NCBI GenBank assembly: GCA_009838645.1
Contig: VXRC01000005.1
Span: 26,858-90,857 of the forward strand
Direction: 5' to 3'
DNA from: Gemmatimonadota bacterium
Lineage (GTDB): Bacteria; JAAXHH01
DNA length: 64,000 nucleotides
The translations under genes and the position numbers were made by a program. This document shows, piece by piece, positions 25,525 through 39,837 of the stretch (the first letter of the stretch is position 1; each line of letters starts with the position of its first letter). The notes beneath the pieces were generated by a model. It searched no databases and was not told the origin of the DNA. It saw nothing but the letters and a program-made list of their open reading frames with translations.

Positions 25525-26472
25525 ATGTCGCCGAGGCCAGCCATGACCATGACCGACCTTTCCCAGCAGACCGAACCCGCGATCGAAGTCCCACGAATCG
25601 TCGACGATGAGCAGATCCAGTTCTACGTGGACAACGGCTATCTCGTCGTTCCCGACCTGATGACCACCGGGGAACTCCAGGAATTGAAGGACGACCTGGT
25701 GGACGTGGCGCGGGGCAAGTATCCCTGCCGGGGACTCGAACCGCCGAAGCCCGAAGACACCGACGACGACGTGCTGCAGCGCATCCTGTGCATACACCAG
25801 CCTCACTTCGTCAGCGAGGTGATCGAGAAGTACGTGCGCCATCCAAAGATCTGCGGCGTGCTGAGCCAGATTACCGCGGCCCACCTGCCCTACTGGGACG
25901 GGAGCGTCAAGTGCATGCAGTCCATGTACTTCATCAAGCCACCCCGGTTCCAGGGCCAGGCCTGGCACCAGGACGAGATCTTCATCCCCACGCGGGACCG
26001 GTCCCTGATCGGCGCCTGGATCGCCGTGGACGACGCGACGATCGAGAACGGTTGCCTGTACGTTGTACCCGGTTCCCACCGCAACGGCTACCTGTATCCC
26101 CAGCGTGCGCATGAGAACCCTGACGAGTTCGACTTTGCCCCCGAGAGTTACGGCTTCGACGAATCCGTGGAAGTACCGGTCGAAGTCCGCGCCGGCGCCC
26201 TGGTGTTCTTCAACGGCTATCTCCTGCACCGGTCCTACAAGAACCGGAGCGGTCAGACCCGCCGCGTGCTGGTGAACCACTACTGCAACGCGTGGAGCCT
26301 CCTGCCGTGGGGTATCGAAGAGGGCGAGCGCCCCGCCACGGCCGACCGGCGCGTGATCGTTCCGGTTTCCGGTACCGATCCCTACGCCTGGAAGGGCTAC
26401 GAACCCGCGCAGGACAAGATCTGGATTCGAAACTGCAAGGCGGCCGACGAGATGAAGGAGGAGGCGCATTAA
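25525..26472 (+). CDS. Phytanoyl-CoA dioxygenase (PhyH) family Fe(II)/2OG oxygenase
   Basis: The translation carries the WHQDEIF HxD motif and a distal His within a double-stranded beta-helix layout over 315 aa. Confidence 0.75.
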   Translation: MSPRPAMTMTDLSQQTEPAIEVPRIVDDEQIQFYVDNGYLVVPDLMTTGELQELKDDLVDVARGKYPCRGLEPPKPEDTDDDVLQRILCIHQPHFVSEVIEKYVRHPKICGVLSQITAAHLPYWDGSVKCMQSMYFIKPPRFQGQAWHQDEIFIPTRDRSLIGAWIAVDDATIENGCLYVVPGSHRNGYLYPQRAHENPDEFDFAPESYGFDESVEVPVEVRAGALVFFNGYLLHRSYKNRSGQTRRVLVNHYCNAWSLLPWGIEEGERPATADRRVIVPVSGTDPYAWKGYEPAQDKIWIRNCKAADEMKEEAH

Positions 26473-29116: not shown

Positions 29117-29905
29117 GTGGCCATGCGACTAGCGGACAAGGCCGCGATCGTGACGGGCGCGGGGGACGGAATAGGACGGGGCATCGCGCTGGCGCTCGCC
29201 CGGGAAGGCGCCGCGGTGGCGGTGTGCGACATCAACGCCCAAACCGTCGCGGAGACCGGCCGCCTGGTCGCGGACACGGGCCGGCCCGTCCTGGCGGAGG
29301 CGCTGGACATCACCGACCATGACCGGGTCCGGTCCTTCGTGGACGACGCGGCCTCCCGGTTCGGCAGAATCGACGTCCTGGTCAACAACGCCGCCATCAT
29401 GCCCGTAAGCCCCATCGAGCACCAGGACGAGGAGACCATGTCCCGCATCCTCTCCGTCAACCTCCTGGCGCCGGCCGTCTTCAGCAAGTACTGCATTCCG
29501 CATATGCGTGCCGCGGGCGGCGGATCGATCATCCACATGGCCAGTGTGACGGGTCATAACGGCCATCCGGGCGTGGCCGTCTACGGGGCGACGAAGGGCG
29601 GGCTGATCGCCCTGGCCCGAGGCCAGGCCATGGAACTGGCCGAGGACCGGATCAGGGTCAACACGGTTTCGCCCGGCACGGTGGATTCGCCCATGCTGCA
29701 CAACTTCGTGAAGGAGAACGCCGGAGACCCGGAGGCGGCGCTCAGGGCTTTCGACCGCCTGCACCCCATCGGCCGGGTCGCTACCATCGGGGAGGTCGCC
29801 AACGTCTTTGTTTTCCTGGCGAGCGACGAATCCAGCGACATCACGGCGACGGACATCCGGTGCGACGGCGGCTACGCGGTCCAGGGACGACAGCCGACCG
29901 AATAG
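29117..29905 (+). CDS. SDR family oxidoreductase
   Basis: The translation carries TGAGDGIGRG, NNAA and YGATK motifs over 262 aa. Confidence 0.85.
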   Translation: MAMRLADKAAIVTGAGDGIGRGIALALAREGAAVAVCDINAQTVAETGRLVADTGRPVLAEALDITDHDRVRSFVDDAASRFGRIDVLVNNAAIMPVSPIEHQDEETMSRILSVNLLAPAVFSKYCIPHMRAAGGGSIIHMASVTGHNGHPGVAVYGATKGGLIALARGQAMELAEDRIRVNTVSPGTVDSPMLHNFVKENAGDPEAALRAFDRLHPIGRVATIGEVANVFVFLASDESSDITATDIRCDGGYAVQGRQPTE

Positions 29906-29949
29906 CAACAGGCAAAGTCGGCAATGAGCACCAGCGGCAAGGAGAATCT

Positions 29950-30996
29950 ATGTCAGTAGGGGTTTGCGCGTACTCGTTCAACACGGGATACGACGCCTTT
30001 CAGCTCATGGACATGGCCGTCCAACACGGCCTCGGCGGCGTGGAGTTTCCTCCCGACGACTGCCTCCCCGATCTGTCCCCGGCCTCGCTGGAGCGGGCCC
30101 GTGCCCGGGCCGAGGAGATCGGGTTGTACGTCGTAGCGGACGGCGGTCAGGTCGAGGGCGAGATGATGCACCGCCTGATCCCCGCGGCCGCGAGCCTCGG
30201 CGCCTCGACGTTGCGCGTGGTCATGAGCGGCGTCCTCGGCGGCGACCGCCGGCCGCTGTCGGGCCGGTGGAACGCCCATCTCGCCGGGTGCAGAGACATC
30301 CTGCGCGAGGCGCTGCCCCTGGCCGAGGAACACGGGGTGACCATCGCGGTGGAGAACCACTCGGACGCCACGTCCCACGACATGCGCTGGCTCTGCGAGG
30401 AACTGGACAGCGCGTACATCGGCATCACGCTCGACGTGGGCAACGTGCTGGCGGTCTGCGAGGAACCCTTCGGATACACGGAACGCATCCTCCCTTACCT
30501 GAAGCATGTCCACCTCAAGGACTACACGATCCATCCCTCCGACGAGGGGTACCGCATCGCGCGGTGTTCACTGGGCAGCGGCGTGGTCGACTACCGCGGC
30601 CTGCTTTCCCTGATCGACGTATACCGGGGCCAGCGCGGCCAGGCGGTCCAGCCCGGCCCGGCGGACCAGCCCAGCCCGGCGGACCAGTCCGGCCCGGCGG
30701 ACCAGCCCGGCCAGATCACGAAAACCATCGAACTGGGCGCCATCTACGCCCGGCACGTGCGCATGCTCATGGATGACTACTGGGCGGAATACCCCGAACG
30801 CGACATCAGGGACATGCTGCCGTTTTTGCGGCTGTACTGGTCCCACGTCCGTCCCGTCGGGGAAGACTGGCGCACGCCCAGGGAGAAGGACGAATCCACC
30901 GAGGCCCTGAAGGCATACGAGACGCGGGAGTTCGAAGAAAGCGTCGCCTATCTGAAAGAAATCGGGGCCGTCCGGGCGGACTCCGGCACATCCTGA
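29950..30996 (+). CDS. Sugar phosphate isomerase/epimerase (xylose-isomerase-like TIM barrel)
   Basis: The translation from MSVGV shows IAVENH and LKD metal-site context. A GGAGAA RBS precedes the ATG at 29950. A QPGPADQP repeat insert is present. Confidence 0.75.
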   Translation: MSVGVCAYSFNTGYDAFQLMDMAVQHGLGGVEFPPDDCLPDLSPASLERARARAEEIGLYVVADGGQVEGEMMHRLIPAAASLGASTLRVVMSGVLGGDRRPLSGRWNAHLAGCRDILREALPLAEEHGVTIAVENHSDATSHDMRWLCEELDSAYIGITLDVGNVLAVCEEPFGYTERILPYLKHVHLKDYTIHPSDEGYRIARCSLGSGVVDYRGLLSLIDVYRGQRGQAVQPGPADQPSPADQSGPADQPGQITKTIELGAIYARHVRMLMDDYWAEYPERDIRDMLPFLRLYWSHVRPVGEDWRTPREKDESTEALKAYETREFEESVAYLKEIGAVRADSGTS

Positions 30997-31013: not shown

Positions 31014-32123
31014 ATGAGCTTCTCCTATCAAACCGGCGACCCTATTGAAAAGAAGGCGGCCCTGATGAAGATGGCACGCCTGGACCAATCCGACATGCAT
31101 GGGTCCATCGGATCGATCCCGGACCAGATGGAGGCGGCCTGGGAGGCCATGGCGGGACGCACTTTCCCCGACGCCTGCCGGAACGTCAACCACGTGGTCG
31201 TGGCGGGCATGGGGGGATCGGCCCTGGGCGCCCACCTGATACAGGACGTCTTCCGCGACCGGCTGCGCGTTCCGGTCACTATCGTATCCGATTACGCGGC
31301 CCCTTCGTGGATCGACGAGCGGACCCTCATCGTGCTGTCCAGCTATTCCGGGGGCACAGAGGAAGTGATGGCCGTGGCGGAACACGGCCTGTCCAGGGGA
31401 GTATCGATGATCGCCCTGACCACGGGGGGCGACCTGGAAGCGTTCGCCGGGCGCCATGGGCTGCCGGCCGTGGTGTTCGGCAGCGAGCTCAACACCTGCG
31501 GGCAGCCGCGTATCGGCCTGGGCTACGCGGTCACCTACCTCCTGGCGATGTTCCGTCAACTGGGGTTCGTGGCGCTTGCCGAATCCGAGGTAACGAGCAC
31601 TCTCATGCTGCTCCGGGAGACCAACCCGGATTACGCTGCGCCCGGTGAGGAGAACCCCGCCTATGAGTTGGCCTCGGCCACGGGGGGGAAGTCGATCCTG
31701 ATCATGGCTTCCGAGCATCTCACGGGCAACGCCCACATCCTGGCCAACCAGTGGAACGAGAACGCCAAGAACCTGGCCGTCTGGTTCGCCATACCGGAAC
31801 TGAATCACCATCTGCTCGAAGGGATGACCCACCCCGTGGAGCACCGGGACGGACTCGCCGCCGTGCTGATCCAGTCCGGCCTGTACGATCCGCGCAACCG
31901 GCGCCGCCACGAGATTACCCGCACGCTGCTCGAGCAGCAGGGGATCGCGTGTTCCGTAGTAACGCCCGGGGGAGAGACGGCGCTCGAGCAGGCCTGCGAC
32001 CTGCTCCTGCTCGGTACCTACGCCAGTTTCTACCAGGCAATTATGAACGACGTCGATCCGTCGCCCATACCCTGGGTCGATCAGTTCAAGCGGCTGATGG
32101 CATCAAGAGACGGTAAGGTATGA
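31014..32123 (+). CDS. Bifunctional phosphoglucose/phosphomannose isomerase (SIS domain, archaeal type)
   Basis: Two SIS modules are present, including VVVAGMGGSALG over 369 aa. Confidence 0.8.
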   Translation: MSFSYQTGDPIEKKAALMKMARLDQSDMHGSIGSIPDQMEAAWEAMAGRTFPDACRNVNHVVVAGMGGSALGAHLIQDVFRDRLRVPVTIVSDYAAPSWIDERTLIVLSSYSGGTEEVMAVAEHGLSRGVSMIALTTGGDLEAFAGRHGLPAVVFGSELNTCGQPRIGLGYAVTYLLAMFRQLGFVALAESEVTSTLMLLRETNPDYAAPGEENPAYELASATGGKSILIMASEHLTGNAHILANQWNENAKNLAVWFAIPELNHHLLEGMTHPVEHRDGLAAVLIQSGLYDPRNRRRHEITRTLLEQQGIACSVVTPGGETALEQACDLLLLGTYASFYQAIMNDVDPSPIPWVDQFKRLMASRDGKV

Positions 32124-35100
32124 GTGAAATCGTCACCTACCTGCGGGGAAAGAACCTGCTGATCACCGGCGCCACCGGATTCCTTGCGAAAGCGGTCGTG
32201 GAGAAGATCCTGCGGTGCGCCCCGGAAGTAGGCCGTATCTACCTGGTCGTCCGGGCCCGAAGGAGGAAGGACGGCACCACACTGACGGCGCGGGAACGGG
32301 TGGAGGAAGAGATCCTCCAGTCCGCCGCCTTCGCCCGGCTTCGCGAGACCCACGGCGAACGTTTCGCGGATATCATGCGCGCCAAGGTCCACGCCGTCGA
32401 GGGCGACCTTACCCAGGACCACCTCGGACTGGAACCGGACCTGTACCACCGGCTCGCGGCGGAAGTCGACGTGGTGCTCACCTGCGCGGCATCCGTGACC
32501 TTCGACGAAGAAATCGACGCCGCGCTTCAGCTTAACACCCTCGGTGCGCGGCGCATGATGGAATTTGCCAGATCGTGCGGCGACGCCACGCTGGTCCACG
32601 TCTCGACGGCCTACGTTAACGGCCAGACCAAGGGCCGCATTCCCGAAGCACCGCCCCGTCCGGACTGGTCCATGGCCCAGGAAATGGGGCGAAGCGACGC
32701 GCCTTTCGACCTGGAACGGGAAATCCGGGACATACTCGCCAGGGCGGATGAGATCCACGACGACTCCCGTTCGCCGGGACAGCAGGAGCGTTTCAGGAAG
32801 ATGGCGCTGCAGCAGAACCCGAGCCCCTCGCAGCGCTGGCTCGACGCCCAGATGGAGACCTTTCGCAAGCGCTGGCTCAAGGAACGGCTTATCGAAGAGG
32901 GCATGCGCCGCGGGCAGCAGTGGGGTTGGCACGACAGCTATACCCTGACGAAGGCCATGGGCGAGCAGTTGATCGTCAAGCACCGGGGCGACCTGCCCAC
33001 GGCCATAATAAGGCCGTCCATCGTGGAAAGCGCGCTGGTCGAGCCCGAACCGGGATGGATCGAGGGGCTCAAGGTAGCCGACCCGCTCATCGACGCGGTG
33101 AGCAAGGGGCGCCTGCCGGACTTCCCCGGCCAGAAAGACATGATCGTGGACATCATCCCGGTGGACATCGTGGCCAATACGACCCTGGCGGCCATGGCGC
33201 GCACGGCCCGGGAAGGCGGGATCGGCGTGTACCACGTTTCGACGGGCGACCGGAATCCCGTCCTATTCCACCAGGCCTTCGAGCACTCATACGAGTACTT
33301 TCAAAAGTACCCCCGCCTGAACCGGAACAACGAACCCATACCGATCCAGCGATGGACCTACCCGACCCTTGGCCAGTTCCGGCGCCGGTACAACCTGCGC
33401 TTCGTCTACCCCCTGAACGCCGCGTTGTGGACGCTCAACCGCTTCACCCGGATTACCCTGCTGAACAACCTGAAGCGCAGAATCGCCGTGATGAAGTCGG
33501 CGATCTCGCGCATGCTGTACTACGCCGCGATCTACAGTCCCTACACGTCCCTGGAATGCACCTTCGAGACGGACCGCACGGTCAGGTTGCACGAAAGTCT
33601 GGATCCCGAGGACCGGCTGCTCTTCAACGGCGACGTCTCCAGGATCCTCTGGAAGACCTATTTCCAGGATATCCATATCCCCGGCCTGAAACGCCACGTG
33701 CTGAAGACCGATGAGCCGAAGCCCGCGGTCACGGAAGAAGAGGAGGTGGCGGAGCGATCCGGGTTCGCCCAGGCCGGGGAGGATGCGCTGCCCCATCTCG
33801 ATACGCTGACGGACATACTGGCCAAGAGCGCGGACATGTACGGAGACAAGACCGCGCTGCAGATGCCGCGGGACGATGGCTGGATCCGCTATTCCTTCAA
33901 GGACGTGTTCGCCCTGGCCGGACACATCGGCTGGCAGTGGCGTTCCAGCGGCCTGCATTCGGGTGACCGGGTCTTGCTCTTCTCGGAGAACCGGCCCGAA
34001 TGGGGTATCGCCTGTTTCGCCGGGATGGTGGCCGGGGCCGTGCTCGTGCCTGTGGACCGCCGGTCGACACCCCAGGAAGTATGGCGCATTGCCCGGTTTA
34101 CCGAATCGAGGGCCATCCTCTGCACGGAAAGCGGTCACGCATTACTCACCGCGTCGGCGAAGCCCGGCGGTGAACCGGCGGAGCCCGGCGGCGACGTCAT
34201 GTTCTGGAACATCGAAAACTACGGTCTGCCGTTCGACGCGCCGCGAAGGTCCGCGTCGCCCGTCACACTGAACGAGGAGCCGCCCCCCTGGGCGCCAGTG
34301 GATCCCGATACGCCGGCAGCCATCATGTTTACCCGGGGCATGGCGGCCGAATCCCACGGCGTGGTCCTGACCCATCGGAACTTCGTTTCGAACCTGCTGT
34401 CCCTCGCCGAGATCCTGCGCGCCTACCGGACCGACCATTTCCTGTCCCTGCTGCCCATGAGCCAGGCCCTGGAGTTCACGGGCGGTTTCCTCATGCCGTT
34501 CTACGCGGGGGCGACCATTACCTATACCACGTCGGTAAGGCCGCGGTCCCTGGTCGGCCTGATTGATGAAACCGGGGTCAACTGCCTGATCGCTGCGCCA
34601 CGGTTATTCGGGCTGTTGCACGGGTCGCTGCGACAGACGGCCGAGAAAAACGGCGACAGCGTCGTTTCCCGCATGCGGCTGCTGGTCAGCGGCGGCGGCA
34701 CGCTCGATTCGGACCTGTACCACGCCTACCGGGAGATCGGCCTGACGATCCACGAGGGATACGGGCTCACGGAAGCGGCCCCGGTCGTGACCGTAAATCC
34801 CATGGACCGAAGCAAGCCCTCCTCCGTCGGTGTGGCCCTGCCGGCGGTAGACGTTGAAATCCAGGCCCCCGACAAAGAAGGCAACGGCGAGATTATCGTG
34901 CGCGGGAACAACGTCATGCAAGGGTACTACAGGAACCCTACGGCGACGGAGAACCGTCTCCGCGGCGGGTGGCTTCACACGGGGGACATCGGACGCATCG
35001 ACCGCGACGGCTATCTGTACATCATGGAGCGCCTGGGCCAGGCCACCGGGTCCGCCGGTTCCGCCGGTTCCGCCGGTTCCGCCGGTTCCGCCGGGTCCGT

Positions 35101-35830
35101 GCCAGGAGGTCCGGAAGGAGCGGCCGGTCGACGGGCGGGACGCTTCGTAAACGGCCGGGAACACGCCGCGACGGCCTTCTTCGACGTGGACGGCACCATC
35201 GTGGACGCGACGATCGTACACTACTACGCCTTTTACAGGACCTGGGGATATTCCTCCCTGCGGCGCCTAGTCTGGACCATCGGATTCCTGCCGAAAATCC
35301 TCTATTACATCGTCCTGGACAAGATCAGCAGGAGCCGATTCATCCAGGCGTTCTACCGGCAGTACCGTGGTTTCGGTCGCGGGGAATGCGTTTCGAGGAG
35401 CGAGCAGCTTTTCGAAAAAGTCATGCGTCCACGCATGTACGCCGGGGCCGTCGATCGCATTCGGGCGCACCAGCAACGGGGCGAGCGCGTGGTCCTGGTC
35501 ACCGGGTCCCTGGATTTCGTCATGGAGCCGCTGGCGGAATACACCAAGGCGGACGACCTCATCGCCCTGTCCATGAAGGAAGACGACGGCCAGCTGACCG
35601 GCGAGACGGAAGGGCCGCCCATCGGTGACGAGGCGAAGGCCCGAATCGTCCGGGACTACGCCGAGCGCCGCGGTATCGACCTGGCCCGGTGCTATGCCTA
35701 TGCCGACAGCAGTTCGGACGCGCCCATGTTGGGCGTGGTAGGACACGCCGTCGCCGTGAACCCCGGCGGGAAGCTGAAGAAAGCCGCGGAAGCCGGCGGG
35801 TGGGAAGTCGTGCACTGGACCCATGTATGA
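32120..35830 (+). CDS. Multidomain fatty acyl reductase (NAD_binding_4 plus Sterile) / AMP-dependent acyl ligase / HAD-IB phosphatase fusion
   Basis: Residues 1-530 form the FAR portion (LITGATGFLAK, VHVSTAYVNG, the YTLTK active site and a C-terminal FNGDVSRILWKTYF Sterile-like region). Residues 540-970 form the adenylate-forming domain (GYGLTEAAP, GWLHTGDIGRIDRDGYLYIMER). A (SAG)n linker follows. Residues 990-1236 form the HAD-IB domain (FFDVDGTI, VTGS, AYADSSSDAPML). The ATGA start overlaps the PGI/PMI stop. Confidence 0.8.
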   Translation: MSEIVTYLRGKNLLITGATGFLAKAVVEKILRCAPEVGRIYLVVRARRRKDGTTLTARERVEEEILQSAAFARLRETHGERFADIMRAKVHAVEGDLTQDHLGLEPDLYHRLAAEVDVVLTCAASVTFDEEIDAALQLNTLGARRMMEFARSCGDATLVHVSTAYVNGQTKGRIPEAPPRPDWSMAQEMGRSDAPFDLEREIRDILARADEIHDDSRSPGQQERFRKMALQQNPSPSQRWLDAQMETFRKRWLKERLIEEGMRRGQQWGWHDSYTLTKAMGEQLIVKHRGDLPTAIIRPSIVESALVEPEPGWIEGLKVADPLIDAVSKGRLPDFPGQKDMIVDIIPVDIVANTTLAAMARTAREGGIGVYHVSTGDRNPVLFHQAFEHSYEYFQKYPRLNRNNEPIPIQRWTYPTLGQFRRRYNLRFVYPLNAALWTLNRFTRITLLNNLKRRIAVMKSAISRMLYYAAIYSPYTSLECTFETDRTVRLHESLDPEDRLLFNGDVSRILWKTYFQDIHIPGLKRHVLKTDEPKPAVTEEEEVAERSGFAQAGEDALPHLDTLTDILAKSADMYGDKTALQMPRDDGWIRYSFKDVFALAGHIGWQWRSSGLHSGDRVLLFSENRPEWGIACFAGMVAGAVLVPVDRRSTPQEVWRIARFTESRAILCTESGHALLTASAKPGGEPAEPGGDVMFWNIENYGLPFDAPRRSASPVTLNEEPPPWAPVDPDTPAAIMFTRGMAAESHGVVLTHRNFVSNLLSLAEILRAYRTDHFLSLLPMSQALEFTGGFLMPFYAGATITYTTSVRPRSLVGLIDETGVNCLIAAPRLFGLLHGSLRQTAEKNGDSVVSRMRLLVSGGGTLDSDLYHAYREIGLTIHEGYGLTEAAPVVTVNPMDRSKPSSVGVALPAVDVEIQAPDKEGNGEIIVRGNNVMQGYYRNPTATENRLRGGWLHTGDIGRIDRDGYLYIMERLGQATGSAGSAGSAGSAGSAGSVPGGPEGAAGRRAGRFVNGREHAATAFFDVDGTIVDATIVHYYAFYRTWGYSSLRRLVWTIGFLPKILYYIVLDKISRSRFIQAFYRQYRGFGRGECVSRSEQLFEKVMRPRMYAGAVDRIRAHQQRGERVVLVTGSLDFVMEPLAEYTKADDLIALSMKEDDGQLTGETEGPPIGDEAKARIVRDYAERRGIDLARCYAYADSSSDAPMLGVVGHAVAVNPGGKLKKAAEAGGWEVVHWTHV

Positions 35831-37062
35831 AAGCCGTACAGTACATCAAGAGCGTACCCCGGTACCTGTTCGTCCGCACCCTCGGCCATCGCCGACCCGG
35901 CCCGGCCACCGGCGCGCTGTCGTGCATCCGCATGGCGGACGTCGATCCCCCCGCGCTTCCGACGCCTGAATGGATGCGTGTCAGACCGCTGTTGAGCGGA
36001 ATCTGCGGATCGGACCTTTCCACCATACGGGCGAAGGGCAGCCCCTATTTTTCGCCCCTGATTTCCGCGCCTTTCGTCCTGGGCCACGAAGTGGTGGGCG
36101 AGGTGGAGGAGGCCGGTTCAGGTCCCGGGGAAGTTTCCCGGGGAGACCGCGTGGTGATCGAGCCCGGCCTCTGCTGCGCCGTCCGGGGTATCCACCCACC
36201 GTGCCCGCCGTGCGGGGAAGGCGATTTCGGGCTGTGCGAGATGGTCATGCACGGCGACATTTCCCCGGGGATACAGACCGGGTACTGCAGGGACACGGGT
36301 GGTGGATGGAGTACGTCCCTGGTGGCGCACCCCTTCCAGGTCCACCTGGTGCCCGATCCGCTTTCCGACGAGGAAGCGGTCCTGGTCGAACCCTTCAGCT
36401 GCTGCCTGCACGCCGTGCTGAAGTCCTTTCCCGGTGATGACGAGACCATCCTGGTGATCGGCTGCGGCGCCGTCGGACTACTCACCATCGCGGCCATACG
36501 GGCCCTGGGAGGGAAGTGCCGCATCCTCGCCGCCGCGCGGTATCCCCATCAGCAGGCCCTGGCGCCCGCCCTCGGCGCCGACCGCGTCATCGGCAGGGGC
36601 GAAGACCTCTACGATACGGTCAGCGAAGTGACGGGTGCGGAGATCCATCGGCCCGAGATCGGGCGGCCCGTATTCATCGGCGGCGTGCACCGGACCTTCG
36701 ACTGCGTCGGGTCGTCGCGCACCATCGACGACGCGCTGCGGCTGACCGGCTCCGGCGGCGTCGTCACCGTGGTTGGCATGCCGGGCATTCCATCCGGGAT
36801 CGACTGGACGGCGGTGTGGTACAAGGAATTGAAAGTGCAGGGGGCCTACGCCTACGGGACGGAGGAACACGAAGGTCGGTCCGTCCGGACCTTCGACCTG
36901 GCCATGGATCTGATCGCGTCGGGGGAGGTCGGCCTGAAGCCTCTCGTGACGGACCTCTTCCCCCTTACGGCATACCGGAAGGCCATCGGCCGGGCCCTGG
37001 AAGCCGGCCGGCACGGCGCCGTCAAGGTGGCTTTCGACCTGAGAAACGAACCGGGGCCGTAA
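35827..37062 (+). CDS. Zinc-dependent alcohol dehydrogenase (MDR superfamily)
   Basis: The translation carries GHEVVGEV, a structural Zn Cys cluster CPPCGEGDFGLC and GCGAVGL. The ATGA start overlaps the upstream stop. Confidence 0.85.
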   Translation: MKAVQYIKSVPRYLFVRTLGHRRPGPATGALSCIRMADVDPPALPTPEWMRVRPLLSGICGSDLSTIRAKGSPYFSPLISAPFVLGHEVVGEVEEAGSGPGEVSRGDRVVIEPGLCCAVRGIHPPCPPCGEGDFGLCEMVMHGDISPGIQTGYCRDTGGGWSTSLVAHPFQVHLVPDPLSDEEAVLVEPFSCCLHAVLKSFPGDDETILVIGCGAVGLLTIAAIRALGGKCRILAAARYPHQQALAPALGADRVIGRGEDLYDTVSEVTGAEIHRPEIGRPVFIGGVHRTFDCVGSSRTIDDALRLTGSGGVVTVVGMPGIPSGIDWTAVWYKELKVQGAYAYGTEEHEGRSVRTFDLAMDLIASGEVGLKPLVTDLFPLTAYRKAIGRALEAGRHGAVKVAFDLRNEPGP

Positions 37063-37119: not shown

Positions 37120-38760
37120 GTGCCTTACCTGAAGTTGTTGCACGCAAAAGCCCCGCAAGTCCATGTCCTGTCAAGGGATGTCACTACCCTGGGCCGTTCC
37201 GGCGAGGCCGACATCGCCATAGGCGGCGACCGGGGCGTTTCGAAGCTTCATGCGCGTATCGAAACGGAGGCGTCGGGCTACGTGATCGCGGACCTGGGCA
37301 GCCGGAACGGGACTTACGTCAACGATCATCCAATCGGCGACGAGCCCGCCCCGCTGCTGCCGGGTGACCGCATCCGGCTCGGACGATCGGTTTTCGTCTT
37401 CGAGGGGGGAGAACCCGGAGAGCGCGCCGATGATCTGCAGGCGCCGGCCTCCCTCTTCCGGGCGGACCAGTTGCCGTACACGATGGCGGGCGGGACACCC
37501 GCCGTGAAGCCTGAGGATACCGACGGACGGCTGCTGAAACTCACGGAACTGAGCAAGGAAGTCATGACGGCCCGCAGCGAGGCCGAGCTGGGAGACCTCG
37601 TGACGGGGAGCCTGCTGGAATGGCTGGAGGCGGACTGCTGCGCGATCGTCCATCCCGTCGAGACCGGGGATGGCTACGATTTCGAAATCCGGACGCTGGC
37701 CTCCCGGCCCGGTTACGAAGACCGCTCGATTTCGATCAGCACGACGGCGGTGAAACAGGCCCTGGAAAACCGGATGGCCTCTATCACTTCGAACGCCCCG
37801 GGGGACGAGCGGTTCAGGGACCGGCAGAGCGTGATCGTCCGCCGGCTGGTGTCCATACTGTGCGTGCCCCTGTGGCATGAAGACCGGGTGTTCGGCCTGC
37901 TTTACCTGGATTCCGCGGATCCGGCCGTGGAGTTCACCGTGGACCATCTCGGCCTGTCCAGCGCGGTGGCCAACCTGACCGCCATCAAGACCGACAACCT
38001 GCGCCTCTTCGACGCCGCCGTGGCCAAAAGCGCACTGGACAAGGAACTGGCCCTGGCGGGCGAGATCCAGGCCGGGCTGCTGCCGGGAGAAAGCTATGCC
38101 TTCAACACGCTGGCCTGCGCGGGCGCCCATGTGTCCTGCGAGGAGATCGGCGGGGACTATTACGACTTCATTCCTTATGGCGAGGATGTCCTGACGGTGA
38201 CGATCGCCGACGTCACCGGACACGGCCCGTCCAGCGCGTTGCTCATGGTCGCCTGCAAGACCATGCTGACCACCCTCATCGACATCGGCGTGCCACTGGT
38301 GGAACGCGTCGGCAGGCTGAACGATTACATACTCCATCATTCCTCGGTGAGCCAGTTCATCACCTTCTTTCACGCCGATATCGATACCGGGGCGAACACC
38401 CTGCGGTACTGCAACGCCGGGCACAATCCGCCCATGCTTCTTTCGCAGGATGGACCGGTCCAGAAGCTGCATGCAGCCGCGCCGCCGCTGGGGATCGCCG
38501 ACGTTTCCTTTGAGGTGGAATCGGTACGGTTCGAATCCGGGACCAGGCTGGTCATGTATACCGACGGCGTCACCGAGGCGGCCAACGCCGAAGGCGATCT
38601 CTATGAAGAACAACGGCTCGAGTCCCTGCTGACGAAGCACAGGGGCCAGGATGCGGGCGCATTGAAGGACACCGTCATGGCGGCGGTGTTCGGGTTTTCA
38701 TCGGAATCCCGGCAATGTGACGACGTCACCCTGGCCGTGGTGGAGCATACCGGCGCGTAA
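37120..38760 (+). CDS. FHA-GAF-PP2C (SpoIIE/RsbU-like) serine/threonine phosphatase
   Basis: An N-terminal FHA domain (GRS...HARI...DLGSRNGTYVN), a central GAF domain and a C-terminal PP2C domain (ADVTGHG...YTDG) over 546 aa. Confidence 0.8.
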   Translation: MPYLKLLHAKAPQVHVLSRDVTTLGRSGEADIAIGGDRGVSKLHARIETEASGYVIADLGSRNGTYVNDHPIGDEPAPLLPGDRIRLGRSVFVFEGGEPGERADDLQAPASLFRADQLPYTMAGGTPAVKPEDTDGRLLKLTELSKEVMTARSEAELGDLVTGSLLEWLEADCCAIVHPVETGDGYDFEIRTLASRPGYEDRSISISTTAVKQALENRMASITSNAPGDERFRDRQSVIVRRLVSILCVPLWHEDRVFGLLYLDSADPAVEFTVDHLGLSSAVANLTAIKTDNLRLFDAAVAKSALDKELALAGEIQAGLLPGESYAFNTLACAGAHVSCEEIGGDYYDFIPYGEDVLTVTIADVTGHGPSSALLMVACKTMLTTLIDIGVPLVERVGRLNDYILHHSSVSQFITFFHADIDTGANTLRYCNAGHNPPMLLSQDGPVQKLHAAAPPLGIADVSFEVESVRFESGTRLVMYTDGVTEAANAEGDLYEEQRLESLLTKHRGQDAGALKDTVMAAVFGFSSESRQCDDVTLAVVEHTGA

Positions 38761-38784: not shown

Positions 38785-39837
38785 TCAGATCCAGCCGTGA
38801 TCGATGTTCACCGGCGTGCCGGACTGCTGGTGGGTCCACTGTCCCCCACTGGCCAGCGGCACCTCCCTGCCCGAAATGGAAGAATGCTCCGCGGCGAACA
38901 GGATCTCCATGACGTGGCGGCCCCATTCTCCGGGCGTGGGCGGTTCGATATCCTTGCGGATCGCCTCGACGAACCCCTTCCACTCGTTGTACATGGGATG
39001 AGGCGGGTCGTCGAAGGGCACGTCCTCCCACCGGTTGTCCTTGCCCACCCTGACGTACTTCTCGCCGGACTCGCTGAAGCGCAGCGATCCGTTGGCGCAG
39101 ATCACCTGGCACTCGTGATTGGGGCCGCCGTCGGCGTACCCGACGGCCACCGCCACGCCCGACGTGCCGTTCTTGTAGCGGATGAATGCCGTGGCGGAAT
39201 CGTCCGCGGCCTGGTAGTGGGCCCGGTTGCCGATGGTGGCGGAGACCGAGACCGCCTGCGAGGCCATGACCCAGGAAAGCCGGTCCACCACGTGGACCCC
39301 GTTGGTCATCCACATGCCGCCGCCGTGGAACCGGCTGCGGTACTGGGGTCTGCGGCTGCCGTACCCCCAGTTCTTGGACATGTAGCACACCCCCGTAATG
39401 GCCGGTCCCAGGGCGCCAGAATCCAGGATTTCCTTGGCCTTGATGCTGGTGCCGTAGAAGTGCTGCGTCAGGCCCACCATGAGCTTGACGCCGTTGGCCG
39501 CCGCGGCGGCGATCATGTCGTCGCACTGTTCCAGGCTGATCGCCATGGGCTTTTCCACCAGGACGTGCTTGCCGGCGTTGCAGGCGTCCACGGTCAGCCG
39601 GTGATGCAGCTGGTGGCCTAGGACGATGGCCACCGCTTCGACCTCGTCGTCCTCAAGCAGTTCCGTATGGGTGGCGTAACCCCTGGGGATGTCGTACATG
39701 TCCATGTATTCACGGCGCTTTTCCTCGAGCAGGTCGGCGACCGCCACGATTTCCACGCCGTCCTGGTTCGCAATGGCTTCGCAGTGGGGACGGGCGATGC
39801 CGCCCAGTCCGATGATGCCGACGCGCAGGTTAGACAC
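38785..39837 (-). CDS. Gfo/Idh/MocA family oxidoreductase
   Basis: The translation carries LRVGIIGLGGIARPH and EKPMA motifs over 350 aa. Confidence 0.8.
   Translation of the reverse strand: MSNLRVGIIGLGGIARPHCEAIANQDGVEIVAVADLLEEKRREYMDMYDIPRGYATHTELLEDDEVEAVAIVLGHQLHHRLTVDACNAGKHVLVEKPMAISLEQCDDMIAAAAANGVKLMVGLTQHFYGTSIKAKEILDSGALGPAITGVCYMSKNWGYGSRRPQYRSRFHGGGMWMTNGVHVVDRLSWVMASQAVSVSATIGNRAHYQAADDSATAFIRYKNGTSGVAVAVGYADGGPNHECQVICANGSLRFSESGEKYVRVGKDNRWEDVPFDDPPHPMYNEWKGFVEAIRKDIEPPTPGEWGRHVMEILFAAEHSSISGREVPLASGGQWTHQQSGTPVNIDHGWI

What the first reader, a model, noticed from the sequence alone, without database searches (positions are those of the whole stretch)
32120..35830. A 1236-aa fusion of fatty acyl reductase, acyl-AMP ligase and HAD-IB phosphatase in one polypeptide
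The N-terminal 530 aa carry the full FAR architecture. Next comes an adenylate-forming domain with a degenerate P-loop region (FTRGMAAESHG) but intact A5-A8 motifs. A (Ser-Ala-Gly)n linker and a HAD-IB domain (DVDGT...GDSxxDxPML) follow. FAR plus fatty-acid activation in one chain would channel free fatty acid to fatty aldehyde or alcohol. The HAD-IB module is the usual partner of PlsC-type acyltransferases in lipid synthesis. The order differs from the myxobacterial ether-lipid enzyme ElbD (CoL-ACP-FAR-AGPAT), which contains related parts. This suggests an uncharacterised fatty-alcohol, ether-lipid or alkyl-glycolipid route.
Basis: partly seen in the sequence, partly recalled or inferred. Interest (0 to 1): 0.8.

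Follow-up and report, generated by a model that had tools for sequence, protein, structure and literature searches.

The report
ElbD–ElbB ether-lipid enzyme fusion, reduced
This real 1236-aa gene of a Gemmatimonadota bacterium is a cut-down bacterial ether-lipid synthase (ElbD) that lost its carrier and acyltransferase parts, kept a disabled ligase stub, and fused to its partner phosphatase (ElbB), pointing to reductase plus phosphatase as the working core.

Summary
The ORF (32120..35830, +, 1236 aa) is real and not an assembly chimera. At least 22 protein clusters share the architecture, and two independent 3–4 Mb contigs carry it in the same locus. Pfam and NCBIfam confirm the FAR module (NAD_binding_4 + Sterile), the AMP-binding module and the HAD-IB module.

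- ElbD's domain order is FAR–ACS–ACP–AGPAT. The query is collinear with ElbD-like proteins over its first ~970 residues.
- The ligase module is only the N-terminal ANL subdomain. It stops at the A8 hinge, and family-invariant A3 and A4 residues are replaced in all 23 fused proteins.
- No ACP or acyltransferase is present.
- The HAD belongs to the standalone HAD family that flanks elbD in six phyla, which is the elbB position.

Related genomes show a reductive series at this locus: ElbD + HAD, then FAR–ANL(N)–HAD (this gene), then FAR–HAD or FAR + HAD.

Best reading: a bifunctional acyl-thioester reductase and phosphatase, held together by a folded, selected but non-adenylating ANL scaffold. 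It is translationally coupled to a Zn-ADH that also follows the HAD in other phyla.

Verdict: a new variant of a known kind, of moderate interest.

The parts
32120..35830 (+). Whole gene: FAR - ANL(N-subdomain) - linker - HAD-IB, 1236 aa. ATGA overlaps join it to the upstream and the downstream gene.
   Evidence: ORF; domains; same architecture in P0001-P0022; same locus on independent contigs L003 and L004.
32129..33706 (+). FAR module (residues 4-529): NAD_binding_4 (15-354) plus Sterile (447-529). The G17xxG20 Rossmann motif, S162, Y274 and K278 are intact.
   Evidence: Pfam. PDB 7eoz_A 'Fatty acyl-CoA reductase' matches over residues 4-529 at E 1e-84. Catalytic residues are invariant in 23 fused and 93 canonical proteins.
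33707..33814 (+). Linker 1 (residues 530-565), acidic: 'EEEEVAERSGFAQ'. It is retained even in FAR-only relatives.
   Evidence: Alignment and the L007 FAR C-terminus.
33815..35023 (+). ANL (AMP-binding) N-terminal subdomain only (residues 566-968). It ends at the A8 hinge. It is predicted to fold and is under purifying selection, but key catalytic residues are altered.
   Evidence: Pfam and NCBIfam hits stop at profile position ~400-430 of ~500-530. PDB sequence hits stop at chain residue ~397-440. AF2 pLDDT is mostly 85-95. Best target TM-scores are to isolated N-domains of FadD13, FadD5 and PqsA. dN/dS is 0.09-0.22. ANL/FAR divergence ratio is 1.32 in the fused clade versus 0.90 in canonical proteins.
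34328..34360 (+). Degenerate A3 (P-loop) FTRGMAAESHG. The canonical family motif is FTxGT[TA]VD[PA][RK]G.
   Evidence: M741 and H746 occur in 23/23 fused proteins. Thr occurs in 91/93 and Arg/Lys in 93/93 canonical proteins.
34454..34477 (+). A4 region PMSQALEF, where the family-invariant His is replaced by Gln782.
   Evidence: His in 93/93 canonical proteins, Gln in 23/23 fused proteins.
35024..35161 (+). Linker 2 (residues 969-1014), disordered. It contains (SAG)5, encoded by a 9-bp x6 tandem repeat at 35046-35099. This is the fusion junction that replaces ANL-C, ACP and AGPAT.
   Evidence: TRF. pLDDT ~30. dN/dS ~0.7. Length ranges from 11 to 58 aa among relatives. Junction anatomy.
35174..35773 (+). 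HAD-IB phosphatase module (residues 1019-1218), elbB-type. Motifs: I D1022/D1024/T1026; II T1128/S1130; III K1173; IV D1196/D1200. A helical cap lies between motifs I and II.
   Evidence: TIGR01490 at 133.7 bits, cut-off 98.3. Motifs are invariant in 23 fused and nearly invariant in 118 standalone homologs. Standalone homologs lie next to elbD-like genes. Model.
35827..37062 (+). Zn-dependent MDR alcohol dehydrogenase (411 aa). Its ATG overlaps the fusion gene's stop codon. It is a conserved partner of the HAD.
   Evidence: Pfam and NCBIfam below cut-offs, Tdh/IolM/GatD-like. Homologs at 47-75 % identity lie directly after the HAD in L005, L007, L015, L024 and L035.
31014..32123 (+). SIS / bact-PGI_C phosphosugar isomerase-like gene. 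Its stop codon overlaps the fusion gene's start codon.
   Evidence: Conserved upstream of the FAR or elbD gene in L001, L003, L004, L006 and L007-L009.
29860..30996 (+). Xylose-isomerase-like TIM-barrel (AP_endonuc_2) gene. The true start is probably downstream of 29860, because homologs are 323-348 aa.
29117..29905 (+). SDR oxidoreductase, conserved in the locus of close relatives.
37120..38760 (+). FHA-GAF-PP2C (SpoIIE) regulator, conserved downstream.
   Evidence: Also present in L003, L004 and L005.
38785..39837 (-). GFO/IDH/MocA oxidoreductase, conserved next to the locus.
   Evidence: Found at 83-98 % identity in L003, L004 and L007-L009.

Best explanation
The gene is a derived ElbD::ElbB fusion.

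Origin. The ancestral arrangement survives in related Latescibacteria-type and unnamed metagenome contigs. There, an ElbD-like four-domain protein (FAR-ANL-ACP-AGPAT) is followed immediately by a small HAD-IB phosphatase, the elbB-type partner, and then by a Zn-ADH. In one Gemmatimonadota lineage an in-frame deletion removed the ANL C-terminal subdomain, the ACP and the acyltransferase. It joined the ANL N-subdomain, at the A8 hinge, to the start of the HAD gene.

How it most likely works:
1. The intact FAR1-type module reduces acyl-CoA or acyl-ACP from the cell's pool to fatty aldehyde or alcohol, using NAD(P)H. This is inferred from intact motifs.
2. The intact Mg-dependent HAD module dephosphorylates a phosphorylated lipid or backbone intermediate of the same pathway. 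The most plausible substrate is a 1-O-alkyl(-acyl)-glycerol-phosphate-like compound, by analogy with the ACAD10 HAD domain. This is inferred.
3. The ANL stub no longer adenylates fatty acids. It persists as a folded, selected scaffold or ligand-binding spacer.

The anatomy and the loss of catalytic residues are shown here. The absence of adenylation activity is inferred. The Zn-ADH is translationally coupled to the fusion and probably acts in the same route.
For: Architecture and authenticity.

Collinearity with FAR-ANL-ACP-AT proteins at 40-70 % identity over residues 1-970. ElbD's published domain order is FAR-ACS-ACP-AGPAT, and elbB is a HAD: PMC9131029, PMC9426513, PMC13012113.

Three states at one syntenic locus:
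- State A, L005 and L006: SIS - ElbD-like - HAD. L005 continues with Zn-ADH and FHA/GAF/PP2C.
- State B: the window, L003 and L004.
- State C, L007-L009: FAR 560 aa + HAD 223 aa - Zn-ADH, with the same flanking housekeeping genes as the window.
- State D: the P0027 cluster, a direct FAR-HAD fusion that keeps only 'LPHKTALTD' of the ANL domain.

FAR phylogeny: B+C+D are monophyletic at 100/100 bootstrap and sister to canonical state A.

The HAD module is 64-65 % identical to standalone HADs at this locus. It is 38-47 % identical to HADs directly downstream of elbD in Poribacteria, Acidobacteriota and Planctomycetales. It is 40-43 % identical to the HAD in the elbB position of Anaeromyxobacter and Bradymonadaceae, whose layout is HAD - Lar_N - ElbD - epimerase.

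ANL disablement:
- Truncation at the hinge.
- A3 and A4 substitutions fixed in 23/23 fused proteins.
- A8, ACP Asp-Ser and AT NHxSHxD/PEGTRS are invariant in 93 canonical proteins and absent here.
- No ANL-C, ACP or AT homolog anywhere in the 64-kb window.

FAR and HAD catalytic residues are intact.

The stub is still constrained. dN/dS is 0.09-0.22 against 0.7 for the linker. It evolves 1.32x faster than FAR, against 0.90x in canonical proteins. The AF2 model is confident and best matches isolated ANL N-domains.

Precedent for a HAD phosphatase acting on alkyl-glycerol phosphates: PMC13596139.
Against: - No biochemistry exists for this protein or for any locus-1-type ElbD. Even the ElbD/ElbB mechanism in M. 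xanthus is unresolved.
- The ANL stub is under clear purifying selection and keeps A5-A7, so a residual or new ligand-dependent function cannot be excluded.
- The classical A10 Lys is not conserved even in canonical relatives, so this family's ANL chemistry may be atypical.
- I could not scan the complete genomes of the fused clade for a trans-acting ANL-C/ACP/AGPAT.
- The M. xanthus ElbB sequence itself was not available for direct comparison.
- The neighbours (SIS isomerase, TIM barrel, IolG/IolM-like dehydrogenases) suggest a sugar or polyol-phosphate backbone rather than plain glycerol, so the HAD substrate is uncertain.
Confidence: 0.7

Rival explanations
1. First reader's model. The protein is a trifunctional enzyme in which the ligase module activates free fatty acid to acyl-AMP and hands it directly to FAR, with the HAD acting later.
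For: The AMP-binding N-domain is recognised strongly. A5 (YGLTE), A6 and A7 (TGD) are intact. The domain is under purifying selection and is predicted to fold. Isolated ANL N-domains can bind acyl-adenylates in crystals, for example PqsA-N 5oe6, listed.
Against: The whole C-terminal subdomain and the A8 hinge, invariant in 93 canonical relatives, are missing. The A3 Thr and Arg/Lys and the A4 His are replaced in 23/23 proteins. No ACP is present to carry the acyl group. FAR enzymes use thioesters, not adenylates (established knowledge of FAR1-type enzymes). Sister lineages dispense with the ANL stub altogether.
Confidence: 0.07
2. Split-enzyme model. The ANL stub is completed in trans by a separately encoded ANL-C/ACP/AGPAT or ANL-ACP-AT protein, such as the L090/L091-type second elb locus. 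Full ElbD chemistry would then be retained across two polypeptides.
For: FAR-less ANL-ACP-AT proteins and split elbD genes exist (sponge preprint). A mosaic contig, L001, joins the fused-clade gene to such a tail at the A5 region. That hints that both locus types may occur in related organisms.
Against: The fixed A3 and A4 substitutions would still cripple adenylation. The window holds no such gene. L091 has a higher GC content (0.70 versus 0.63) and its host is unknown. Lineages C and D lost the stub entirely.
Confidence: 0.1
3. Different-pathway model. FAR + HAD + Zn-ADH, with the SIS isomerase, TIM-barrel, SDR and GFO enzymes, no longer make glycerol ether lipids. They make another fatty-alcohol- or aldehyde-derived product, for example an alkyl or acyl polyol or sugar lipid, a wax precursor, or a signalling lipid. 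The anatomy would be as in the best explanation, but the end product would differ.
For: The acyltransferase needed for glycerolipid assembly is gone. The conserved neighbours are sugar or polyol-phosphate-type enzymes: bifunctional PGI/PMI-like, IolM/Tdh-like and IolG-like. An FGGY kinase sits in related loci. I found no report of ether lipids or elb genes in Gemmatimonadota.
Against: The locus is the positional ortholog of canonical elbD + HAD loci. The HAD - Zn-ADH pair also follows canonical four-domain ElbD in Acidobacteriota and Planctomycetales. General PlsC enzymes elsewhere in the genome could do the acylation.
Confidence: 0.2
4. Artefact or pseudogene. The long ORF would be a chimeric assembly, or a decaying gene with no function.
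For: One related contig, L001, is a mosaic of two locus types and could be a mis-join. Linker 2 is repeat-rich and hypervariable.
Against: The same frame and architecture occur in at least 22 clusters and 37 members of one cluster, from many samples and sources. These include 3.18 and 3.94 Mb contigs. dN/dS is 0.09-0.24 in all three modules. Catalytic motifs of FAR and HAD are invariant. GC3 is 0.83, typical of genes in this window.
Confidence: 0.01

Closest known systems
ElbD (Myxococcus xanthus MXAN_1528, UniProt Q1DC43) and ElbD-like FAR-ACS-ACP-AGPAT proteins of Poribacteria, Acidobacteriota and Latescibacterota
   Same: The N-terminal FAR1-like module is followed by an acyl-CoA-synthetase-type ANL module in the same order. 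The query is 40-70 % identical to canonical relatives over residues 1-970, and 29-33 % identical to the Anaeromyxobacter and other Myxococcota ElbD. It occupies the same chromosomal slot as canonical elbD in related genomes.
   Different: The query lacks the ANL C-subdomain (A8 onward), the ACP and the AGPAT domain. A3 and A4 catalytic residues are replaced. It carries a C-terminal HAD instead. It occurs in Gemmatimonadota, a phylum for which I found no report of elb genes.
ElbB, the HAD-like phosphohydrolase of the elb operon
   Same: The query's HAD belongs to the same PF12710 / TIGR01490-type family. Homologs (38-47 % identity) lie directly next to elbD in Poribacteria, Acidobacteriota and Planctomycetales. 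In the elbB position of Anaeromyxobacter and Bradymonadaceae they are 40-43 % identical. All four HAD motifs are intact.
   Different: Here it is covalently fused to the ElbD remnant rather than being a separate gene. The M. xanthus ElbB sequence itself was not compared. ElbB's substrate is unknown, and its knockout phenotype was attributed partly to polar effects.
Split elbD variants (FAR gene + ANL-ACP-AT gene) reported in Poribacteria and Acidobacteria
   Same: They also show that the FAR and ANL parts of ElbD are separable evolutionary modules (sponge preprint; L090).
   Different: In those variants nothing is lost. Here the ACP and AT are lost and the ANL domain is truncated.
FARAT (FAR-GNPAT fusion; Tetrahymena, M. 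xanthus MXAN_1675)
   Same: A FAR1-type reductase is fused to another enzyme of ether-lipid assembly (PMC13012113).
   Different: The partner there is an acyltransferase. Here it is a phosphatase, with a dead ANL domain in between.
[quoted passage not shown]
   Same: A Mg-dependent HAD phosphatase embedded in a multidomain protein that acts on ether-lipid phosphates (PMC13596139). This is a functional analogy for what the ElbB-type HAD may do.
   Different: It belongs to a different HAD subfamily (EPHX2-like cap) in a different protein context. No homology beyond the superfamily is claimed or was tested.
Isolated ANL N-terminal domains (FadD13-N 3t5c/5zrn, FadD5-N 8r2r, PqsA-N 5oe6)
   Same: The predicted fold of residues 556-972 matches these best, with target TM 0.79-0.87. 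The boundary at the hinge is the same.
   Different: Those are laboratory truncations of active enzymes with normal P-loops. The query is a natural truncation with altered A3 and A4.

Membership tests
FAR1-type fatty acyl-CoA reductase (PF07993 + PF03015) | N-terminal Rossmann NAD(P)-binding domain with a GxxGxxG motif | tested here: met
   PF07993 at E 1e-66, residues 15-354. G17, T19, G20, F21 and L22 are invariant in 23 fused proteins and nearly so in 93 canonical proteins.
FAR1-type fatty acyl-CoA reductase (PF07993 + PF03015) | Catalytic Ser / Tyr-x-x-x-Lys | tested here: met
   S162, Y274 and K278 are invariant in all 116 sequences.
FAR1-type fatty acyl-CoA reductase (PF07993 + PF03015) | C-terminal 'Sterile' domain and full-length similarity to a solved FAR | tested here: met
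   PF03015 at 49.5 bits, cut-off 35.4. 7eoz_A matches over residues 4-529 at E 1e-84.
FAR1-type fatty acyl-CoA reductase (PF07993 + PF03015) | NAD(P)H-dependent reduction of acyl thioester to aldehyde or alcohol | not testable with these tools
   Needs an enzyme assay.
ANL adenylate-forming enzymes (acyl-CoA/ACP synthetase, FAAL) | N-terminal large subdomain fold | tested here: met
   PF00501 at E 1e-62. AF2 pLDDT is mostly 85-95. Foldseek hits to ANL enzymes at E 1e-31.
ANL adenylate-forming enzymes (acyl-CoA/ACP synthetase, FAAL) | A3 phosphate-binding loop (T/S-G-T-T-G-x-P-K-G; in this family FTxGT[TA]VD[PA][RK]G) | tested here: not met
   The query has FTRGMAAESHG. Thr->Met and Arg/Lys->His occur in 23/23 fused proteins, against 91/93 and 93/93 conservation in canonical proteins.
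ANL adenylate-forming enzymes (acyl-CoA/ACP synthetase, FAAL) | A4 His (invariant in ElbD-like relatives) | tested here: not met
   Gln782 in 23/23 fused proteins. His in 93/93 canonical proteins.
ANL adenylate-forming enzymes (acyl-CoA/ACP synthetase, FAAL) | A5 (YGxTE) and A7 (TGD) | tested here: met
   Both are conserved.
ANL adenylate-forming enzymes (acyl-CoA/ACP synthetase, FAAL) | A8 hinge and the rotating C-terminal subdomain | tested here: not met
   The chain diverges after 'GYLYI'. There is no PF13193 hit. All HMM and PDB matches stop at the hinge. A8 is invariant in 93 canonical proteins.
ANL adenylate-forming enzymes (acyl-CoA/ACP synthetase, FAAL) | Adenylation activity | not testable with these tools
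   Needs an ATP-PPi exchange or acyl-AMP assay.
ElbD (four-domain ether-lipid synthase) | FAR followed by ACS, homologous and collinear | tested here: met
   Domain order from the literature.
ElbD (four-domain ether-lipid synthase) | ACP domain with a phosphopantetheine Ser | tested here: not met
   No PF00550 hit. The Asp-Ser motif, 93/93 in canonical proteins, has no counterpart here.
ElbD (four-domain ether-lipid synthase) | AGPAT/PlsC acyltransferase domain (NHxxxxD, PEGTR) | tested here: not met
   No PF01553 hit. The motifs are absent. No such domain occurs elsewhere in the window.
ElbD (four-domain ether-lipid synthase) | Positional orthology with canonical elbD and association with an elbB-type HAD | tested here: met
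   Synteny with L005 and L006. The FAR clade is sister to canonical proteins. The HAD is fused.
ElbD (four-domain ether-lipid synthase) | Required for alkyl or vinyl ether lipid formation | not testable with these tools
   Needs genetics and lipidomics.
HAD-IB hydrolase (TIGR01490) / ElbB-type | Family HMM above the curated cut-off | tested here: met
   TIGR01490 at 133.7 bits, cut-off 98.3. PF12710 at 131 bits.
HAD-IB hydrolase (TIGR01490) / ElbB-type | Catalytic motifs I-IV (DxDxT, T/S, K, DxxxD) | tested here: met
   D1022, D1024, T1026, T1128, S1130, K1173, D1196 and D1200 are invariant in the fused proteins and nearly invariant in 118 standalone homologs.
HAD-IB hydrolase (TIGR01490) / ElbB-type | Helical cap inserted between motifs I and II (C1 cap) | tested here: met
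   The AF2 model has helices at model residues 477-564, between the motif I and motif II strands, with pLDDT ~90.
HAD-IB hydrolase (TIGR01490) / ElbB-type | Homologs encoded next to elbD (the elbB position) | tested here: met
   Found at 12 canonical ElbD-type loci of Poribacteria (7), Acidobacteriota (2), Planctomycetales, Latescibacteria and one unnamed contig (L005), and in the elbB position of Anaeromyxobacter and Bradymonadaceae.
HAD-IB hydrolase (TIGR01490) / ElbB-type | Direct similarity to M. xanthus ElbB (MXAN_1530) | not tested
   The sequence was not retrievable with these tools. The Anaeromyxobacter elbB-position HAD was used as a surrogate (40 % identity).
HAD-IB hydrolase (TIGR01490) / ElbB-type | Phosphatase activity and substrate | not testable with these tools
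   Needs an assay.

The most novel reading that the evidence does not exclude
FAR + ElbB-type HAD + the coupled Zn-ADH may be the minimal catalytic core of the still-unsolved, AGPS-independent Elb route to bacterial ether or alkyl lipids, with ElbD's ANL-ACP-AGPAT half being an accessory feeder. In this Gemmatimonadota protein the ANL N-domain would have been repurposed as a non-catalytic acyl- or nucleotide-binding or docking module. That module would couple the reductase to the phosphatase. The product might be built on a sugar or polyol-phosphate backbone supplied by the adjacent SIS, TIM-barrel and GFO enzymes rather than on glycerol phosphate.
Probability: 0.2. Interest if true: 0.7.

Novelty: new variant of a known kind. 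Interest (0 to 1): 0.5.

Why it matters
The chemistry of the ElbD pathway is unresolved. It is not known how the ether bond forms or what ElbB does. In M. xanthus the elbB phenotype was ascribed partly to polar effects (PMC9131029).

This gene adds several things:
- **Functional link.** A natural gene fusion of the ElbD reductase half with the ElbB-type phosphatase is Rosetta-stone evidence that the two act together.
- **Dispensable parts.** The reductive series (four-domain ElbD + HAD, then FAR-ANL stub-HAD, then FAR-HAD or FAR + HAD) shows that a whole bacterial lineage can drop the ACS-ACP-AGPAT half while keeping FAR, HAD and a coupled Zn-ADH. That narrows the search for the essential chemistry.
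- **Simpler constructs.** It offers a two-activity protein to test.
- **Wider distribution.** It extends elb-type genes to marine or sponge-associated Gemmatimonadota. Cluster-mining approaches keyed on the A domain, with truncated clusters excluded as in the sponge studies, could overlook them.
- **Pseudo-enzyme example.** It is a clean natural case of an ANL domain becoming a pseudo-enzyme domain that remains under selection.

Tried and rejected
1. **Paralog in the window.** The 1447-aa ORF at 6434..10777 (-) has the same length as P0023, so I tested it as a canonical elbD paralog. It is an unrelated Cache/autotransporter protein.
2. **P0023 as the ancestral state.** P0023 is 89 % identical and has a canonical tail. 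Rejected: its first 880 residues nest inside the fused clade (96 % to P0002) and carry the same degenerate A3. Its tail is 89-90 % identical to FAR-less ANL-ACP-AT proteins of a different locus type. Its contig L001 is a mosaic with a breakpoint near the A5 motif. It is either a real recombinant or a mis-join, and it is a singleton.
3. **Genome-contig scan for taxonomy and paralogs.** The patterns were too generic (YEGYGLTE, HVSTAYV). Taxonomy came instead from nr names of cluster members.
4. **A10 Lys argument.** I planned to argue inactivity from loss of the A10 Lys and dropped it, because that Lys is not conserved even in canonical relatives.
5. **'Vestigial, decaying' reading of the ANL stub.** Rejected: dN/dS is 0.09-0.22 and the AF2 model is confident. 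Constraint is only moderately relaxed.
6. **NCBIfam on the neighbours.** This gave no equivalog-level names.
7. **Literature search for PDB 7EOZ.** Nothing was found.
8. **Literature search for Gemmatimonadota ether lipids or elbD.** Nothing relevant was found.

Full report
**Observation**

A single ORF runs from 32120 to 35830 on the + strand: 1236 aa with an ATG start. Its codon-position GC (GC3 0.83) is typical of genes in this 63 % GC window. Its start overlaps the stop of the upstream SIS-isomerase gene (ATGA), and its stop overlaps the start of a downstream Zn-ADH gene (ATGA).

Pfam finds these domains:
- NAD_binding_4, residues 15-354, E 1e-66
- Sterile, residues 447-529
- AMP-binding, residues 568-937, E 1e-62
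- HAD PF12710, residues 1019-1204, E 7e-38

NCBIfam TIGR01490 (HAD-IB) scores 133.7 bits against a cut-off of 98.3.

The gene is not an assembly artefact. P0001-P0022 (1191-1246 aa, 80-95 % identity, full coverage) have the same domain set. One 90 % cluster alone has 37 members from NCBI, ENA and Logan. Two independent contigs of 3.18 and 3.94 Mb carry it in an identical neighbourhood. NCBI nr names the members only as 'HAD-IB family hydrolase [Gemmatimonadota bacterium]', which also gives the taxonomy of the window.

All ANL-family HMM matches end at profile position ~400-430 of ~500-530. No AMP-binding_C domain is found. PDB sequence matches end at chain residue ~397-440.

Aligned with relatives, the chain follows the ANL fold up to '...DRDGYLYI' and then departs into the linker. 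Relatives continue with 'TGRSKDLIVxGAGKNVYPxEVE'. In 93 canonical relatives this A8 hinge motif is invariant (G, R, K, G-K-N, P and E at 93/93). The query therefore has the N-terminal ANL subdomain only.

Three further positions are replaced in all 23 proteins with the fused architecture:

| Position | Canonical relatives | Fused proteins |
|---|---|---|
| A3 Thr | 91/93 | Met, 23/23 |
| A3 Arg/Lys | 93/93 | His, 23/23 |
| A4 His | 93/93 | Gln, 23/23 |

A5 (YGLTE), A6 and A7 (TGD) are kept. 'Intact A5-A8' is thus wrong for A8.

**What the protein is related to**

Beyond the close clade, essentially all homologs (40-70 % identity over query residues 1-970) are ~1430-1480-aa proteins. They carry NAD_binding_4, Sterile, AMP-binding (with or without AMP-binding_C), PP-binding and a PlsC-type acyltransferase. 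Where named, they come from Latescibacteria, Poribacteria and Acidobacteriota.

This is the ElbD architecture. The literature describes M. xanthus ElbD as an N-terminal FAR1-like domain followed by ACS, ACP and AGPAT-like domains (PMC9131029). The query is collinear with ElbD and simply ends early.

The same papers state that elbB, in the same operon, encodes a HAD-like phosphohydrolase. They also state that elbD + elbB is the conserved core of many elb-like clusters.

**Origin of the HAD module**

A search with residues 1004-1236 alone finds, outside the fused clade, standalone 223-240-aa PF12710 proteins at 45-67 % identity. Their genomic contexts are decisive.

- L005 (unnamed metagenome contig): the gene order is ElbD-like (1429 aa) - HAD (234 aa, its start overlapping the elbD stop by 11 nt) - Zn-ADH - FHA/GAF/PP2C.
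- L006 (Latescibacteria): SDR - TIM barrel - ... - SIS/PGI - ElbD-like (1460 aa) - HAD (230 aa).
- Both share flanking genes with the window.

A tblastn of the query's HAD against all fetched loci gave these results:
- A homolog (38-47 % identity) lies directly downstream of canonical elbD in seven Poribacteria loci, two Acidobacteriota loci and one Planctomycetales locus.
- A homolog (40-43 % identity) lies upstream of elbD in Anaeromyxobacter (L022) and Bradymonadaceae (L023).
- In those two, the layout HAD - Lar_N protein - ElbD (- epimerase in L021) reproduces the published elbB-elbC-elbD-elbE order.

The HAD module is thus the elbB-type partner of elbD. All four HAD catalytic motifs are invariant in the fused proteins and nearly invariant in 118 standalone homologs.

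**A reductive series at one locus**

| State | Loci | Arrangement |
|---|---|---|
| A | L005, L006 | four-domain ElbD + separate HAD |
| B | window, L003, L004 | FAR-ANL(N)-linker-HAD |
| C | L007-L009 | FAR alone (560 aa) followed 36 nt later by a separate 223-aa HAD, then Zn-ADH |
| D | P0027 cluster (798-830 aa, contigs up to 170 kb) | FAR fused directly to HAD |

State C has the same downstream chromosomal synteny as the window: GFO, amino-acid permease, PhyH, cytidylyltransferase, Obg, Icd and Mdh. State D keeps only 'LPHKTALTD', the first residues of the ANL domain.

A neighbour-joining tree of the FAR module places B, C and D in one clade (100/100 bootstraps), sister to the canonical state-A proteins P0024, P0025 and P0026. 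The state-C FAR still ends with the acidic linker 'EEEEVAERSGFAQ' that precedes the ANL domain in the query.

The simplest history is one loss of ANL-C/ACP/AGPAT, with fusion to the HAD, in a Gemmatimonadota ancestor. Later losses of the ANL stub followed in sublineages.

The junction is tight. In the shortest forms only ~12 residues ('ADRIERREHAAT') separate 'GYLYI' from the 'AFFDVDGT' motif I. Standalone HADs have 5-14 residues before that motif. The window's longer linker is a repeat expansion.

**Is the ANL stub junk?**

No. Nei-Gojobori dN/dS between the window and L004 (dS ~0.5) gave:
- ANL stub: 0.20
- FAR: 0.13-0.17
- HAD: 0.13
- Linker 2: 0.73

AlphaFold2 (58-sequence alignment, residues 556-1236) gave a mean pLDDT of 86. 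The ANL part is mostly 85-95, with a dip to ~62 at the altered A3 loop. The linker (residues 973-1014) is disordered at ~30. The HAD is well folded with a helical cap.

Foldseek against the PDB gives the highest target TM-scores to crystal structures of isolated ANL N-domains: FadD13-N at 0.87, and FadD5-N and PqsA-N at 0.79-0.82. Full-length enzymes give 0.62-0.73.

Constraint is nevertheless relaxed. In canonical proteins the ANL N-domain diverges 0.90x as fast as FAR. Inside the fused clade it diverges 1.32x as fast.

The pattern is the one expected of a pseudo-enzyme domain kept for structure or binding: catalytic residues are lost, the fold is retained, selection is moderately relaxed, and some lineages dispense with it.

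**Mechanism proposed**

Shown:
- Intact FAR and HAD catalytic residues.
- Loss of ACP, AGPAT, ANL-C and key ANL residues.
- No replacement of these anywhere in the 64-kb window.
- Tight translational coupling to a Zn-ADH whose homologs (47-75 % identity) also directly follow the HAD in L005, L007, Acidobacteriota L015 and L024, and Planctomycetales L035.

Inferred:
- The FAR module reduces acyl-CoA or acyl-ACP from the general pool to fatty aldehyde or alcohol.
- The HAD dephosphorylates a phospho-intermediate of the same route.
- The ANL stub does not adenylate.

A HAD phosphatase acting on 1-O-alkyl(-2-acetyl)-glycerol-3-phosphate has just been demonstrated for ACAD10 (PMC13596139). It is a functional precedent, not a homolog.

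The other conserved neighbours score below NCBIfam cut-offs, apart from a broad SDR subfamily match. They are a bifunctional PGI/PMI-like SIS protein, a xylose-isomerase-like TIM barrel, an SDR and an IolG-like GFO oxidoreductase. They hint that the backbone may be a sugar or polyol phosphate rather than, or as well as, glycerol phosphate. This is why I keep a 'different product' rival at 0.2.

**Side finding: the P0023 / L001 mosaic**

P0023 is 95 % identical to the query up to about residue 880. Identity then drops to 58 %, and after residue 975 it has a canonical ANL-C/ACP/AT tail. It also has the fused clade's degenerate A3.

Its N-terminal part is 96 % identical to fused-clade P0002. Its tail is only 30-33 % identical to state-A tails, but 89-90 % identical to FAR-less ANL-ACP-AT proteins P0280-P0282.

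Those proteins sit in a second, M. xanthus-like elb locus: HAD - Lar_N - FAR - ANL-ACP-AT - epimerase - DAG kinase - CDP-alcohol phosphatidyltransferase.

Contig L001 matches the window's locus (87-88 % identity) up to position ~12,630, and the L091 locus (86-89 %) from there on. It is either a real recombinant that 're-completed' an ElbD or a metagenomic mis-join. It is a singleton, and I do not use it as the ancestral state.

This argues weakly against an in-trans partner.

**Comparison and novelty**

The protein works like, and descends from, ElbD + ElbB. It fails two defining ElbD features (ACP and AGPAT) and several defining ANL features. It is therefore best filed as a new, reduced and fused variant of the Elb system rather than as an ElbD or an acyl-AMP ligase.

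In the papers I could search, elb-like clusters are attributed to Myxococcota, Acidobacteriota, Poribacteria and Latescibacterota. Neither Gemmatimonadota nor a HAD fusion is mentioned, and truncated clusters were explicitly excluded in the sponge survey.

Interest is moderate. The finding is not a new kind of system. It does give fusion-based evidence that ElbB acts with the ElbD reductase. It also identifies FAR + HAD (+ Zn-ADH) as the part of the pathway that evolution keeps.

**Limits**

- No enzymology is available.
- The genome-contig scan was saturated by generic patterns, so paralog content of complete genomes is unknown.
- The M. xanthus ElbB sequence was not directly compared.
- The full 1236-aa chain exceeds the structure tool's length limit, so FAR-ANL-HAD contacts were not modelled.

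Noticed in passing
L001 10001-14344 (P0023); breakpoint near L001 position 12630: A mosaic elbD-like gene. Its first ~880 residues come from the fused Gemmatimonadota clade (96 % to P0002, same degenerate A3). Its tail and downstream genes come from an L091-type elb locus (86-89 % DNA identity). It is either a real recombinant that re-completed an ElbD or a metagenome mis-join, and it is a singleton contig.
   Followed up: partly
L090 5825-12679; L091 5366-13235; also L021, L022, L023: A second elb locus type: HAD - Lar_N (PF09861) protein - FAR - ANL-ACP-AT (split elbD) - NAD-epimerase - DAG kinase - CDP-OH-P-transferase. The protein in the elbC position carries a LarA-type Lar_N domain and is 57-66 % identical to the gene between the HAD and ElbD in Anaeromyxobacter and Bradymonadaceae. 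The literature I read describes elbC as of unknown function.
   Followed up: partly
window 35827-37062; L005 6823-8055; L007 10669-11919; L015 15013-16200; L024 15029-16216; L035 14883-16133: A 411-aa Zn-dependent MDR dehydrogenase (Tdh/IolM/GatD-like, below NCBIfam cut-offs) directly follows the elbB-type HAD in Gemmatimonadota, Acidobacteriota and Planctomycetales loci. It is an unrecognised conserved member of this elb-type module.
   Followed up: partly
window 35046-35099 and 34155-34191: There are two in-frame tandem repeats inside the gene. One is 9 bp x6, encoding (SAG)n in linker 2. The other has a ~10-bp period in the ANL insertion 'GGEPAEPGG', which is expanded to four copies in P0001. 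Linker 2 varies from 11 to 58 aa among relatives, with DRLDR-type repeats in others.
   Followed up: yes
L030, L031, L033 (Latescibacterota and an unnamed MAG): An independent group of FAR-only homologs (534-540 aa, 48-50 % identity) branches among canonical ElbD-like proteins. This suggests repeated loss or splitting of the ANL-ACP-AT half.
   Followed up: no
window 37120-38760 (+): An FHA-GAF-PP2C (SpoIIE) regulator is conserved immediately downstream of the module in the window, L003, L004 and L005. L002 has an FHA-only gene after its elbD. It may regulate the locus.
   Followed up: no
window 23298-25226 (-), 25525-26472 (+), 10928-12217 (-), 44521-45324 (-): A tungsten-type aldehyde:ferredoxin oxidoreductase (AFOR) and three PhyH-family (phytanoyl-CoA dioxygenase-like) genes lie in the window. 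The AFOR-PhyH pair is syntenic upstream of the FAR locus in L003 and L007. An aldehyde oxidoreductase near an aldehyde-producing reductase may or may not be meaningful.
   Followed up: no
window 55139-61447 (-), 6434-10777 (-), 3644-6394 (-): Three very large surface-type proteins are present: a 2102-aa protein with a weak SprA_N match, a 1447-aa protein with four Cache repeats and an autotransporter beta-domain, and a 916-aa LRR + Big_2 protein. All are unrelated to the finding.
   Followed up: no
window 29860-30996 (+): The mechanical ORF of the TIM-barrel gene (378 aa) overlaps the SDR gene by 46 nt. Homologs are 323-348 aa, so the real start is probably ~90 nt downstream.
   Followed up: no
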